Of a DNA stretch of 64,000 bases, positions 1-59,834 are shown one piece after another. Within the stretch, counting starts at the first letter, position 1; each line of letters starts with the position of its first letter. The notes below the pieces were generated by a model, which saw only the letters and a program-made list of their open reading frames with translations, searched no databases and was not told where the DNA came from. The position numbers were made by a program, and so were the translations under genes. This stretch comes from the human T2T-CHM13v2.0 reference genome, Homo sapiens. The stretch is from assembly GCF_009914755.1 (NCBI RefSeq), contig NC_060947.1. One strand, 5' to 3'.

Positions 1-490
1 TCACCATCGCCTCAGGAGATGCCTCCATGCTCTCCTTGGGTGACCCTTTCACACTCTCCTTGGGGGCTACTTCTGCGCTCCCCTTGGGAGGTGCTTCCAG
101 GCTCCCCTCTGGGGCTGCTTCCACGCTCACCTCTGGCAGTGCTTCCAGACTCACTTCCGGGGGTGCTTCCAGGCTCGCCTCCGGGGATGCTACTATGCTC
201 ACCTTGGGAACTGTTTCCAGGTCCACCTTCGGGAGTGCTTCTATGCTCAACTCGGGGGATGCGTCCATGCTCATCTCAGAATCATATGTGCTCACCACAG
301 GCGACACGTCCACGCTCACCACAGGGAATGAGTCCGTGCTCACCTCAGGGGCCATGCCCACACCTGCCTTGGGGGACGCTTCCATGCTTGTGTTGCAGAA
401 TACTTCCACATTCACCTGGGGGGGTGCATCCACACTTGCCTTGGGAGGTGTCTCTACTTTCTCCAAGGGAGACTCTTCTACTTTTGTTTG
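1..490 (-). repeat. Coding 24-bp degenerate tandem repeat (8-aa unit) in MAP7D3 exon 8
   Basis: Periodic GCTTCCA...CTCACCTC-like units on the + strand; peptide EASLEAPP/EVSLEALP/EVSVEAAP/EGSLEAPP. Confidence 0.85.
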
Positions 491-36750: not shown

Positions 36751-38042
36751 TTCATCATCCATTCATCAGTTACTGTGCTGGTTGTTTCCTGGCTTTACAT
36801 TCAATTCCTTTTTCTGAAATCCTTACAGTTATTTGTGATTACTTGTAACTGGAGTTAAACTTTAGTTGTCCAGAAAAATAAAAATAGAAATGCAAAGTAT
36901 CAAGGTGCTCCCAAATCAAACATACAGATGGCAGAGATCATCACAGAAATGACAATAAGGACCCTTTTTCCTGTTTGGCAAAGCTGAGTGTTGCTGCCAC
37001 CTAGCGAGTAAAAGGAAGATGGCTATCATGCAAGGTCAGGCCCTTCTGTGGAGGCCCAGGGAAAAAGACCAGAAATCATCCAGTTTACCAAATATTAATA
37101 ACTTATGAGATTTCACTAATACGTTAAAATTGCAGCATTTGCTTCAGTATATGCAAGCCAATATCTCTTCCGTTGAGAAAAATGGGATCAGGAGAAGAGC
37201 TACTCTGGGCAGTGTTAAGTAGGAGTTATTAAAGAGGAGGTCTTTAAGTAGGAGGTCTTTAAGTGTTAAGTAGGAAGTCTTTGGTTTCCTCCAAACATCT
37301 GCTTACACTGTGTCCTTTCCTACTGATCCTCTCCCTCTCCCAGCTGGAATCCTAGAACCCTAAGTCTGAGCAGGAAGGAACCATCATCAGAGAATTTCTA
37401 AGGCAGCCCGGGTCATAGCACAGAAGAAAACGGATTTGACCAAGGTCACAAAGGTAGTTAACATAGGCAAGACTGACAGAAGACTAGTCTCAGAACTCTG
37501 AAACCTGGTCTGATCAAATCCACCCAAAATGGATGAGATTAGATATTTGCAAAATCACCTTCAGTCTGGAGCAATATTAGGAGATACCATCAATGATATG
37601 AACATATATAAGGAAGCCAAGTCGTTCTGGTAGGGAGAAATGGGTGGTCTGGCTGGAAATCTGGAGAAACTGAAGCTGTTGGGAGCTTCAGGCACTAGAA
37701 GATGCTCTCTACTGGGATGAGGGAAGAAATCTCTCATCAGGACTCAGAGAGGTCAGGCTGAGTATAAAGGCCCCCCAGTCAACAGATCTCAATCTTCATC
37801 AGATACATTCCCACCCATCAGGGAGTGCCCAGGGCTCCCAGTGCACCAGATCTAATCTTACGGTTTCCTCTGCTATTAGGAAAGAATATCAGAAGTGAGA
37901 TGAGAAGCAAAGCTTATTGCAGGATAACTTGAATCTGCTAGAATGTATTTTTAAAAATCAAAATATTTTATTATTATTATTAATCATTTGCAGCAAACTC
38001 ACAGCTCCTAGTTTGGATGGCCCCCATTCTTGCAATGATTCC

Positions 38043-45469: not shown

Positions 45470-48400
45470 GGTTGGCAGAGAGAGAAGACTACTATTAAGT
45501 GGGAGGCTAGCCATTGGCCCAGCTTCCACCAATGAGAATCTGTAGATTGAGAGGTCAGTCAACACCATACAAGCACCATGGCTCTTCCCACCCATGGGCC
45601 CATTCAGCCATTAGAGAGGACTTTGGTCAGACATGTGAATAGTGTAGTCAGGGGTGACTTCTGCAACCCACTGAACTCCTTCCCTAGGGCAGGATGCATT
45701 GGGTTAAAGTGGAAGTGGTATGAGGAAGCACAGATGTTCCAGGGTGACCCTTATTGCTTCTAATGCCCTTAATCTATGACATGAGGTACTTTGATGAAAT
45801 TCGAGCATGCTGGCTGCTGACATAGAGGTTCTGATTAAGTAGGAGGGCAGCCATTAACCAGGTTTCACCAGTGGGAAACTTTAGTAGCGAGGACATCAAT
45901 GCCTTGCAATGGAGGCATCATGGCTCCTTCCTCCCAAAGGTTCCTTTAGCCACTCAGAGAGCACTTTCTGCAGACATGTGAATAGTAATGTTAGGAATTA
46001 GTTCTGCAACCCTCTGATCTCCTTCCCCTGGGTAGAGGGCAGGGTATGGATGTGGAGGTGTCATGTGGGGAGCTTTACTTTCTAGGAACAACCCTGTTCC
46101 TCTTAATGGCTCTACTGTAATGATTTGGGGTCCTGGGGTGTGAACAAGTACACAGATTGCTGACACAGAATCTGTGATTAAGTAGGAGGGCTGCCATTGG
46201 TCATCTTCTACCAATAGGAAACCTTAGAGGAGCCATCTATGCCTCACAATAGAGGCATAGATGGCTCCTCCCTCTCATGAATCCCTTCAACTGATTAGAG
46301 AGAATCTTGCACTGAAATGTGAATAGTAATATATAGGTAATGTATTAATAATAGTATTGGTAATAGAAGTGATGGCCTCGGCAACCCTCTAAAGTCCTTC
46401 CCTTAGGGAGGGTACTATGTGTGGAAGTGCCGATATAATAGGGGGAGCACTAACTTCTGGGCTACCCCTGATACTTTTGAAAGGTCCAACCGTATGATTT
46501 GGGGTTCTAGGAGTCAAACGCATTGGCTAGTCATACAGTGGCTTTGATTAAATAGGAGTGCAGCCACTGGACAGCTTCCATTAATGGGCAACCTTAGTAG
46601 AGAGGACGTCAGGACCTCATGATGGAGGCATCGTGGCTCCTTCCTCCGAAGGGGCCCTTCAACTACTCAGAGAACAGGTTCTGCAGATGTGTAAATAGTA
46701 ATGTCAGGGATGAGTTTTGCAACCCCCTGACCTCCTTCCCCTAGGAAGCGTGCAGTGTATGGATGTGGAGAAGTCATGGGAGGGAGAGAACACTAATTTC
46801 TAGGGCCACCCATGTTTCTTTTAATGGTTCAACCCTTTATTTCGGAATCTGAGGTGTTAAGCACCTTGTGCTGTTACAGAGGATGTCATTAAGAAGGACG
46901 GCAGCCATTGGCCCACCTTCCACCAATGGGAAGCTTTAGCTAGAGAGGATATTATGGCTCACAATGGAGACATTATGGTTTTTCCCTCCCTTGGGTCCCC
47001 TCAGCCTCTGAGAGAAACTTGTGCTGAAATGTCCTTAGGAGAAGAACTTGAGAGGGCTCTAGAAGTCATCACTTCTATTACTAGTAGTATTACTAATACA
47101 TTATTATTTACATTTCAGCAGAAGTTTCTCTCAGAGGCTGAGGGGACCCAAGGAAGGGAGGAGCCATTATGTCTCTATTGTGAGGTGTAATGTCCCCTCT
47201 AGCTAAAGCTTCCCATTGGTGGAAGGTGGGCCAATGGCTGCCCTCCTTCTTAATGACATCCTCTGTACCAGTAGCCAGAGTGCTTCTTTAACACCCCAGA
47301 ACCCCAAATCATAGTGTCAGGTCATTAAAAACAATAGGGTTGGCCCTATAAAGTAGTGCTCCCCCCATGACACCTCTACATTCATACACTGCACTCTACC
47401 CAGGAGGAGGAGATCAGAGGGTTGCAGAACTCATCCTTGGCATTATTACTAGAATATCTGCACAAGGTGATCTCTGAGTGGCTGAAGGGAGCCTGGAGGG
47501 AGGAACCATGATGTCTCCATTATGAGGTATTGATGTCCTCTCTACTAAGATTTCCCATTGGTGAAAGCTGGCCAATTGTTGCTTTCCTACTTTACCAAGG
47601 CCACCGTATGAGCAGACAATGTGCATGACTTCTTCCTCCCAGAACTCCAAATCATAGGGTTGGACCATTCAAGGGTGTGGGGTGGCCCCAGAAAGTAGTA
47701 CTCTCCATATGATATCTGCATGGCAAAACACTGCAAAGTCCTTCCTAGGGGAAGGACTTGAGAGTGTTGCAGAGTTTATCATTTCTATTACTAACACTAT
47801 CACTACTACAGCACCAATATATTACTATTTAAATATCATCACAAAGTACTTTTTGAGTGGCTGAAGACACCCTTGGGAGGGAGGAGCCATGATGCCTCTA
47901 TTGTGACGCATTGATGATCTCTCTACTAAGGATTCCCATTGGTGGGAGCTGGCCAATGGCAGCCCTCCTACTTAATCACAGCTTCTGTGTCAGCGGCCAA
48001 TGTGCTTGTGTTACCACCCTAGGACCCCAAATCAGGATAGAGCCATTAAGAGGAATAGAGGTGACCCTAGAATGCAATCCTTTCACTATGACACCTCCAC
48101 ATTCATACCCTGCACTCTAACCTAGGGGAAGGAGATTAGAGGGTTGCAGAACTCATTCCTAACATGACAATTCACACATCTGCACAAGGTGCTCTCTGAG
48201 TAGCTAGAGGCACTCTTAGGAGGGAAGAACTATGCTGCCTCCATTGTGAGGCATTGGTATCTTCTCTACTAAGGTTTCCCCATTAGTGAGAGCTGTCCAG
48301 TGTCTGCACTTCCACTTAACCAAGGCATCTGTGTCAGCAGCCAGTGTGCTCAATTCCCACCCCAGAACCCCAAGTCTCAGGGTCAGGTCGCTAAAAAGTA

Positions 48401-49390
48401 TTGAGATGGCCTTAAAATATGGTGCTCCCCATATAATATCTTAATAAAGGGGACATCAATGCCTCACAATGGAGGCATTGTGGCTCCTCCCTCTGGTGGG
48501 TCCCCTTAGCCTTTCATTGATAATATTGTGCTGAAATGTGAATAGTATTGTGTTAGTAATAGAAGTGATCACTTTTGCAACTCTCTCAAGTACTTTTCTC
48601 AGGTGGGTGCAGTGGGTGGAGGTGCAGATGTCATATAAGGCCACTCCTCTACCTTTACTGGTCTTGCCCTATGACCTAGAGTTCTGTGGTGAAAATCAAG
48701 CACATTGGCTAGTCAGAAAAAAACCTTGGTTAAGCAGGAGGATGGCTATTGGCCAGCTTCCACTAATGGGAAACCTCAGTAAAGAGGACATCAATGCCTC
48801 ACAGTGGGGGCATCATGGCTCACAGACGATCCCTTCAGTCACACAGAGAGCACATTGTGCAGACAAGTAATTAGTAATGTCAGGGATGACTTCTGAAACC
48901 CTCTGATGTCCTTTTCCTGGGTACAATGCTGTGTGTATAGGTCAAGGTGTCACGGAGAGAGAATTACTTTTAGGGCTATCTCGTTAAAAAATAAAATAAA
49001 AAAAGACTTGACCCTATCGTATGAGGTGCTGGGTGATAAGCCAGCACATTGACTGCTGTTACAGAGGATGTCATTAAGAAGGAAGTCAGCCATTGGGCCA
49101 CCTTCCACCAATGAGAAACCTTAATTAGATGCCCCACAGTGGAGGCACCATGTCTTCTCCCTCCTATAGGTCCCTTCAGCCAGTTAGAGAGCTGAAATGT
49201 GAATAGCAATGTAGTAGTAATATAAGTAATGACTTCTTCAACCATCTCAGGACCTTCCTGCAGGGCATGGTGCAGTGTGTGGAGACAGAGATGTCATTGG
49301 GGGAGTAATAGCTTCTAGGGCCACATGGGTCTCTTCAGCCAGTTAGAGAGAATCTTGTGATAACATGTGAGTAGTAATGTCAGGAAATGT
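45470..49390. repeat. Diverged array of ~340-380 bp units (about 12-13 full or partial copies), with the block 47033-~48440 in inverted orientation
   Basis: Anchor TTAAGTAGGAGGGCAGCCATTGG-like at 45495, 45835, 46178, 46548, 46889 (+); reverse complement near 47250, 47590, 47972, 48316; + again at 48730, 49074. Confidence 0.9.
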
Positions 49391-49981
49391 GTGCCTCTCT
49401 CTGAACAGCTTCCTTTAGGGCAGAAGTACCCCTACAGAAGGCTGTTTTCACCATGAGTTCACTAAAGTCTCTCTTGATCCCATTTTCTCTCTCTCATTCC
49501 CAACTGTCCCAACCTACTCTTGTGGTGTCACAGACTCCTCACATCACATTAACCTGGTAACTTTTGTTAAACACTCATCCTTGCCCCTCTTCCCAGACCT
49601 AGACATTCATGAGTATTCACCTTGAGACACATCATTTACCCTATTATCCTGCATATTTTTCTAAGGCATATCTCTGATTGAGTTTTCCATTCTTCAGAAC
49701 TTTTGAGAAGTGCTGAGTGATTGCAAAGGAGCCCAGCCTAGCTCCTTAGCAGGCATTCAGGACCTTGTAAGATTTGTCACTTGTTCCCCTCCAGTCTCAT
49801 TTACCTACCATGGCTCCTTCCCATCATTTCGGCTCCAGGCACTTTACTCAGGCCTCAGTGGAGGAACTACAGTTCTCCCTCTACCGGAGGTGTTGATTCC
49901 TTCATCTCCACCAAGACAAATGCCACTTACCTTTCAAATTTGGGTCCATTATCATTTTTGAAGCCTTTTTTCACCCCCTAG

Positions 49982-58760: not shown

Positions 58761-59416
<656 letters not shown>

Positions 59417-59834
59417 TTAAACCCTCCTGAATCACCCAACCAAAGCCCAAATCCTGTAATATGTCTTTTCTAACTCCCTCTTACTGAGGTGCCCCATGGT
59501 GTGTGTTTTGCCCTGTTGCAACAAGTAATAAGCTCAACTTGTTCAGCTACAGGTGTGTTCCTGGTAGTCTTTGGCTGGAAGGCAATGAAACTAGAGAACT
59601 CTGATGGGTGCCAAGGGCTGCTAATCAGATTCATCTCCAAGGCACTGAAGGAAATGTTTCGGAAAGCTAGACCTCTTCAAGAGGACTAACTTAAGGCACC
59701 TTACAGTTTTCTAGCTGGCTTGAAGGGTGTGACCTACTTGGATGACCTTAGCTCACTGGCAGATAACAAGAGGAAGAAGTCTATTGTTGGGTTTTGATAA
59801 GATTTGGAGGGCACTAAGGGAAGGATAATGTTCT

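What the first reader, a model, noticed from the sequence alone, without database searches (positions are those of the whole stretch)
46875..47267. Near-perfect long palindrome at the array's inversion junction
Seen: 46875-47032 and the reverse complement of 47110-47267 align without gaps over 158 bp with 13 mismatches by my count (~92%), separated by a 77-bp spacer. The arms share private variants (CCCACCTTCC, GAAGCTTTAGCTAG, CCCCTCAGCCTCTGAGAGAAACTT) and look much closer to each other than to other units. Inference: fold-back/template-switch origin or arm-to-arm gene conversion. It could form a cruciform or a long dsRNA hairpin (endo-siRNA or ADAR substrate).
Basis: partly seen in the sequence, partly recalled or inferred. 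Interest (0 to 1): 0.7.

Follow-up and report, generated by a model that had tools for sequence, protein, structure and literature searches.

The report
Patch-corrected palindrome in old X repeat
Between two human X genes, two head-to-head copies of an old repeat unit are 98% alike in two patches but only 74% alike between them, likely because one was copied onto the other during DNA replication or repair, an ordinary kind of mutation with no sign of function so far.

Summary
The other 61 unit pairs average 70% over the same columns, best 81%. But 92% is an average of three tracts: 70/71, 32/43 and 43/44 identical (clustering p=0.008), and the middle tract is at array background (74%). The arms lie at the left junction of a 1.4-kb inverted block in a ~345-bp-unit tandem array found nowhere else in the genome. 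Their outer mirror flanks are 78% alike. Best reading: an old inversion or fold-back set homologous units head-to-head, and later arm-to-arm copying (template switch or conversion) homogenised two patches. A perfect 19-bp hairpin at 46227-46270 looks like the same process on a small scale. There is no annotated transcript, Rfam or Pfam match, or conserved RNA structure; published yeast and cell data argue against a cruciform with a spacer this long. Primate orthologues and RNA data could not be examined. Verdict: a real, ordinary corrected quasi-palindrome.

The parts
46875..47032 (+). Left arm (first 158 bp of B-type unit U5L), ending at the left inversion junction
47110..47267 (-). Right arm (first 158 bp of B-type unit M4R in the inverted block)
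47033..47109 (-). 77-bp spacer, 32% GC; it is the in-register continuation of the right-hand (minus) unit, so inverted relative to the left flank
46875..46945 (+). Outer homogenised tract, 70/71 identical to 47197-47267
46946..46988 (+). Middle tract, 32/43 identical to 47154-47196, equal to array background (74.1% for other unit pairs in these columns)
46989..47032 (+). Inner homogenised tract, 43/44 identical to 47110-47153, running up to the junction
45798..46874 (+). Outer left mirror region (end of U1, U2-U4), 78.1% identical to 47268-48355 reversed
47033..48437 (-). Inverted block of about four units (M4R, M3, M2, M1 and fragment M0); right junction near 48437-48443
45480..49430 (.). Whole diverged tandem array, ~341-381-bp units of two types (A, B), 14 profile hits including fragments, found at this locus only
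46227..46270 (+). Perfect 19-bp stem with 6-nt loop in unit U3, an imperfect hairpin in the other units; same alignment columns (70-113) as the arms' middle tract (74-117)
49054..49129 (+). Third unit (U8 start) sharing part of the arms' outer-tract variants, 88-89% identical

Best explanation
This is a 158-bp inverted repeat at the junction of an inverted block in an old tandem array, whose arms were likely homogenised in two patches by later arm-to-arm copying (replication template switch or intrachromatid gene conversion), and it is likely without function. Shown: two homologous B-type units sit head-to-head 77 bp apart, in register with about 1.07 kb of further mirror homology at 78%; two tracts (71 and 44 bp) are 98% identical and the 43 bp between them are 74%. 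Inferred step 1: an inversion or fold-back, long before the human-macaque split, set the units head-to-head. Inferred step 2: when about 400 nt became single-stranded (stalled fork or break repair), one arm served as template for the other and synthesis returned in register (Ripley-type quasi-palindrome correction). Inferred step 3: the latest such events are roughly of ape or catarrhine age: 2/115 = 1.7%, 95% range 0.2-6.3%, against 0.87% human-chimp and 5.5% human-macaque for X palindrome arms.
For: Arms 91.8% against <=81.3% for 61 other pairs and 78.1% for the outer mirror region. Tracts 70/71, 32/43, 43/44; other unit pairs in the same columns 72%, 74%, 66%, so the perfect tracts are not generally conserved and the middle is not generally hypervariable. 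Clustering after allowing for interval choice: 168 of 20000 permutations. Both arms changed about equally against the other units (5 left, 5 right, 3 unclear or both by my reading, whose table is disturbed by a one-base shift). The outer boundary lies inside continuing homology (41/56 upstream), as in-register copying predicts. A second perfected quasi-palindrome occurs in U3, the only perfect stem longer than 14 bp among 4 listed in 264 kb. Mechanism described in PMC5453318 (passages); dating yardstick from PMC8327919 (passage).
Against: Only one human sequence was seen, so events and their order are inferred. The middle tract still groups the two arms (4-5 against 0-1 informative sites in three quartets, 2 against 0-1 in a fourth; partly one indel counted several times), so an earlier copy of all 158 bp is not excluded. 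Clustering is only moderately significant (p=0.008). Transition mismatches favour G-U pairs on the + strand (7:2 in the arms, p=0.18; 83:58 in the outer region, p=0.043), which the model does not explain and local base skew does not obviously account for. Unit U8, 2.2 kb away, is also closer to the outer tract (61/69) than elsewhere (91/128, p=0.007), so copying was not only between the two arms.
Confidence: 0.68

Rival explanations
1. One single copying event made all 158 bp identical at about 8% divergence ago, and later point mutations happened to cluster in the middle, perhaps because the unit's small internal hairpin is a local mutation or template-switch hotspot.
For: The arms share a one-base deletion and a G-to-A change inside the middle tract and group together there. 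The same columns were remodelled into a perfect hairpin in U3 and a stronger one in U6 (-23.2 and -12.8 kcal/mol).
Against: Scan permutation p=0.008 against uniform mutation. The middle columns are not more variable among other units (74% against 72% and 66%). Middle identity equals background without any further assumption.
Confidence: 0.2
2. The palindrome is kept by selection as a transcribed RNA hairpin (endo-siRNA precursor or ADAR substrate), most likely from the + strand.
For: Folds at -317 (+) and -301 (-) kcal/mol, z about -32. G-U-compatible mismatches lean to the + strand, 7:2 and 83:58.
Against: Strong folding follows from any inverted repeat. No gene or transcript at this place in the hub's RefSeq table; no Rfam match at gathering score in the array and only 4 sub-threshold matches; consensus structure of the units is -3.7 kcal/mol with a covariation term of -0.18. 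The arm bias alone is not significant (p=0.18).
Confidence: 0.06
3. The palindrome is an actively fragile cruciform-forming site like the Xq27.1 palindrome or PATRRs, and recurrent breakage and repair explain its state.
For: Longest and closest-spaced inverted repeat of 21 in 264 kb; DNA hairpin -178 kcal/mol; divergent, widely spaced inverted repeats become unstable in long single-stranded DNA (PMC10164571 passages).
Against: 77-bp spacer and 8% divergence. In yeast, 12 to 100 bp of spacer lowers recombination 300-fold and 94% homology about 15-fold; a 52-bp spacer abolished fork stalling in eukaryotic cells (PMC7999016). Arms are 48% GC, not AT-rich. No listed paper title or abstract start in searches or 59 mentions a rearrangement here.
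Confidence: 0.06

Closest known systems
Template-switch correction of quasi-palindromes (Ripley mechanism; four-point model of Loytynoja and Goldman 2017, PMC5453318, passages seen)
   Same: A pre-existing imperfect inverted repeat is made near-perfect in register; inverted repeat with an inverted spacer resembles their 3-1-2-4 / 1-3-4-2 type; the U3 hairpin is a typical small case.
   Different: Tracts here are 44-71 bp across a 77-bp spacer, longer than the short events in the passages I saw; no ancestral (ape) sequence was available to fit the four switch points.
Large X-chromosome palindromes with arm-to-arm gene conversion (Jackson et al. 2021, PMC8327919, section 4 and passages seen)
   Same: X-linked inverted duplicate whose arms are more alike than expected; their smallest spacer is also 77 bp.
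   Different: They require arms >8 kb and >99% identity and mostly carry testis genes; here 158 bp at 92% (1.24 kb at about 80%) and no gene.
Small inverted triplications, DUP/IN/DUP (PMC13334657, passages seen) and ODIRA-type inverted copy-number variants (search listing only)
   Same: Forward-inverted-forward layout with a palindromic junction and a spacer.
   Different: Old and fixed inside a tandem array; one-to-one descent of mirror units is not shown (A-type quartet 11/7/9, p=0.27) and the right junction is not a clean palindrome.
Human-specific 180-bp Xq27.1 palindrome (search listing and abstract starts) and PATRRs (PMC7999016 passages)
   Same: Short intergenic X palindrome of similar total scale.
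   Different: Different locus; those are rearrangement hotspots; this one has a long spacer, 13 mismatches and no reported rearrangement in my searches.
Template-switch-born miRNA hairpins (Monttinen et al. 2023, PMC10710096, part 1 of 6 read)
   Same: Hairpins perfected by template switching are common raw material in primates (over 6,000 reported).
   Different: No annotated miRNA or host transcript here; the U3 stem is 19 bp against the preferred ~35 bp; the central stem is far longer than a pre-miRNA.

Membership tests
Template-switch / conversion-corrected quasi-palindrome | Pre-existing imperfect inverted homology extending in register beyond the corrected tract | tested here: met
   78.1% over 1064 columns outside the arms; 41/56 just upstream
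Template-switch / conversion-corrected quasi-palindrome | Tract(s) of near-identity with derived states shared by both arms | tested here: met
   70/71 and 43/44; motifs found only in the two arms; stem 0.14 in tree
Template-switch / conversion-corrected quasi-palindrome | Ancestral or outgroup sequence lacks the corrected tract and four switch points explain the change | not testable with these tools
   No primate genomes are held for this window (no relatives)
Large X palindrome (Jackson 2021 definition) | Arms >8 kb | tested here: not met
   158 bp core, about 1.24 kb in all (definition)
Large X palindrome (Jackson 2021 definition) | Arm identity >99% | tested here: not met
   91.8% core, 78.1% outer
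Fold-back inverted duplication / small inverted triplication | Mirror units are each other's closest relatives | tested here: inconclusive
   U2-M1 and U4-M3 are reciprocal best by margins as small as 0.4-1.4 points; A-type quartet 11/7/9, p=0.27; U3+M2 against M4R+U8 8/0/1
Fold-back inverted duplication / small inverted triplication | Second palindromic junction and a third direct copy | tested here: inconclusive
   U8 resembles the arms (83%, 79%) but U6 is not closest to U3/M2
PATRR-type cruciform fragile site | AT-rich arms with no or very short spacer | tested here: not met
   Arms 48% GC, spacer 77 bp
Hairpin RNA / endo-siRNA locus or ADAR substrate | Long intramolecular duplex possible | tested here: met
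Hairpin RNA / endo-siRNA locus or ADAR substrate | Transcribed across both arms; small RNAs or A-to-I editing detected | not testable with these tools
   No RNA data; hub RefSeq table lists no transcript here
Known RNA family | Rfam match at gathering score | tested here: not met
   0 in the array; best 28.8 bits against 97 needed
Protein-coding repeat or dead gene | Shared open frame or protein homologue | tested here: not met
   8 of 36 stop-to-stop frames scanned: no Pfam match at cut-off; one frame searched genome-wide hits only the array, with stops in 6 of 7 other copies
Named interspersed repeat or satellite (Dfam/RepeatMasker) | Copies elsewhere or match to a repeat library | tested here: inconclusive
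   No copy elsewhere by DNA or pattern search (limited sensitivity) or by profile in 200 kb of flank; no repeat library available

The most novel reading that the evidence does not exclude
The palindrome is a small, recurrently self-correcting X element: each primate lineage re-homogenises its arms and may flip the spacer, and it is transcribed in the germ line from the + strand as a long hairpin that yields endo-siRNAs or is ADAR-edited, that is, an unannotated hairpin-RNA gene born inside a single-locus ancient array.
Probability: 0.06. Interest if true: 0.7.

Novelty: new member of a known kind. Interest (0 to 1): 0.22.

Why it matters
As read here it is a tidy natural record of arm-to-arm copying at sub-kilobase scale, with a built-in control (unconverted middle, outer mirror units, third copy). 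With primate orthologues it could give tract lengths and timing for palindromes far smaller than the ones studied on X and Y, but it changes no principle. If the hairpin were transcribed and processed it would be a rare human hairpin-RNA locus. The host array (about 4 kb, one locus, no known family) is itself unexplained.

Tried and rejected
Rfam on the array and whole window: nothing at threshold in the array. RNAalifold on 12 units: no conserved structure. Coding reading: 8 of 36 frames against Pfam, two sub-cut-off hits only; six-frame genome search finds only the array. Other genomic copies: none. Idea that the unconverted middle was looped out by the unit's own hairpin: the columns coincide with the U3 hairpin, but local folding there (-5.5 to -5.9 kcal/mol on average) is no stronger than in the converted outer tract (-5.6 to -5.9), so not supported. 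Clean triplication U3-U5 / M2-M4 / U6-U8: mixed support, not adopted. Regional strand skew as the cause of the G-U bias: no steady skew in 25-64 kb. Bacterial promoter/terminator scan: not relevant to a human locus. Literature: MAP7D3+ADGRG4 (4 papers), MAP7D3+GPR112 (2), MAP7D3+inversion (8), a five-term search on short-spacer homogenisation (0): no listed title or abstract start describes this locus. Supplements searched with recalled coordinate prefixes and gene names: PMC7954356 (6 files, 0 hits), PMC10710096 (3 files, 0 hits; a fourth too large), PMC8755829 (scan, unreadable); these negatives are weak. The rarity control covers 264 kb around the locus only, so no genome-wide rate was obtained. 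Earlier scan findings were not available.

Full report
Observation. The stated arms align without gaps over 158 bp with 13 mismatches and a 77-bp spacer. Among 62 unit pairs with at least 100 columns in the same part of the unit, the arms score 91.8% and the other 61 average 70.4% (SD 5.0, maximum 81.3%). In a tree of 12 units they form one of two supported forks (100/99; stem 0.14, tips 0.047 and 0.043). In 264 kb (window, 140 kb left, 60 kb right) my scan found 21 ungapped inverted repeats with arms of 40 bp or more and spacers up to 500 bp. This one is the longest and has the shortest spacer; most others look like Alu pairs (recognised from recall). This control is local, not genome-wide.

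Setting. The arms belong to an unannotated array at about 45480-49430 of 341-381-bp units. The units fall into two types, B being supported as a clade (97/96). The order is A A B A B(part) on +, then B(part) A B A and a fragment on - (47033-48437), then B(part) A B A(part) on +. The spacer is the continuation of the minus-strand B unit. DNA, pattern and protein searches of the whole genome found matches only inside the array (these searches are lower bounds), and a profile found none in 200 kb of flank. There is no Rfam match at threshold, no Pfam match at cut-off in 8 of 36 frames, and no conserved unit structure (consensus -3.7 kcal/mol).

The arms are the core of a larger mirror. BLAST aligns 45798-48355 with itself in reverse at 76.7%. 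Outside the 158 bp the mirror is 78.1% over 1064 columns (Fisher p=2.7e-5 against the arms). Whether the inverted block is a fold-back duplicate of the left units or an inverted part of a pre-existing array is not settled. Mirror partners U2-M1 and U4-M3 are reciprocal best matches by margins as small as 0.4-1.4 points, the A-type quartet is 11/7/9 (p=0.27), and U3+M2 against M4R+U8 is 8/0/1.

The arms are a mosaic. Identity is 70/71 in 46875-46945, 32/43 in 46946-46988 and 43/44 in 46989-47032. A scan statistic that allows for choosing the interval was reached in 168 of 20000 permutations. Among the other units the same columns are 72%, 74% and 66% alike, so the perfect tracts are not generally conserved, the middle is not generally hypervariable, and the middle equals background. 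The outer boundary falls inside continuing homology (41/56), which fits copying between pre-existing homologues with return in register. Against this reading, the middle still groups the two arms in quartets (4-5 against 0-1 in three, 2 against 0-1 in one; partly a single indel), so an earlier full-length event remains possible. A third unit, U8, matches the outer tract at 61/69 against 91/128 elsewhere (p=0.007) and carries two of the shared motifs in part.

A second trace of the same process. Unit U3 holds a perfect 19-bp stem with a 6-nt loop (46227-46270) where other units have an imperfect hairpin (-23.2 against -2.6 to -12.8 kcal/mol). Of 4 perfect stems of 14 bp or more listed in 264 kb, two are one (TA)n run, one is 14 bp, and this is the fourth. 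Its columns (70-113) coincide with the arms' unconverted middle (74-117), but folding energies do not single that region out, so I record this as unexplained.

Mechanism and age (inferred). Template switching converts near-perfect inverted repeats into perfect ones and can invert spacers (PMC5453318, passages); it is frequent in primates (PMC10710096, part 1 of 6). The two tracts differ at 2 of 115 sites (95% range 0.2-6.3%). With 0.87% human-chimp and 5.5% human-macaque divergence for X palindrome arms as yardstick (PMC8327919, passage), the latest copying is likely of ape or catarrhine age, and the 78% mirror (corrected distance 0.26) is several times older than the human-macaque split.

Cruciform and RNA. 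In yeast a spacer of 100 bp instead of 12 lowers recombination 300-fold and 94% homology lowers rearrangement about 15-fold, though long single-stranded DNA lifts these limits (PMC10164571, passages). A 52-bp spacer abolished fork stalling in eukaryotic cells (PMC7999016, passages). A hairpin in long single-stranded DNA is plausible (-178 kcal/mol); a cruciform is not favoured. As RNA either strand would fold, which follows from the repeat itself. The hub table shows no transcript. One loose end favours the + strand: G-U-compatible transitions 7:2 in the arms (p=0.18) and 83:58 in the outer mirror (p=0.043), without a steady regional skew. Strand-biased mutation (recalled knowledge) is the likelier cause than RNA selection.

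Comparison. It works like a Ripley-type corrected quasi-palindrome and meets the two features testable here; the outgroup test could not be run. It is not a member of the large X palindromes (>8 kb, >99%, Table 1 not held) or of PATRRs, and membership of small inverted triplications (PMC13334657, passages) is inconclusive. The Xq27.1 palindrome is another locus (listing). Searches and the passage gave no description of this locus; supplement searches were negative but weak, and one scanned and one oversized supplement could not be seen.

Verdict. A real and well-observed feature, best read as a patchily corrected palindrome in an old single-locus array: a new member of a known kind, interest 0.22.

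Noticed in passing
window 45480-49430: Unannotated, unmasked ~345-bp-unit tandem array of two unit types with no copy found elsewhere in the genome; most units carry ATTGG and CCAAT motifs (NF-Y-like by recall) in a small hairpin. Origin unknown.
   Followed up: partly
window 46227-46270: Perfect 19-bp hairpin in unit U3; both arms differ from the other units in complementary fashion, suggesting copying in both directions. A weaker perfected version occurs in U6 near 48445-48490.
   Followed up: partly
window 49054-49129: Unit U8 start is 88-89% identical to the arms' outer tract but 71% around it, suggesting an older conversion among three copies.
   Followed up: partly
window 45798-48355: Transition mismatches between mirror regions lean to G+T on the + strand (83:58 outer, 7:2 inner); unexplained.
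   Followed up: partly
window 37215-37277: A 15-bp-period micro-array carries the 12-mer TTAAGTAGGAGG (3 matches with up to 1 mismatch) that is also in six array units 8 kb away; 9 matches in the window against 0.41 expected. No wider homology by profile.
   Followed up: partly
window 20-350: 24-bp-period repeat inside the coding MAP7D3 exon.
   Followed up: no
window 46861-47190 +: A 109-codon stop-free frame runs through the left arm and spacer; no Pfam match, taken as chance.
   Followed up: yes
window 58772-59418: Tandem head-to-tail pair of Alu-like copies, period 322, 84% matches.
   Followed up: no
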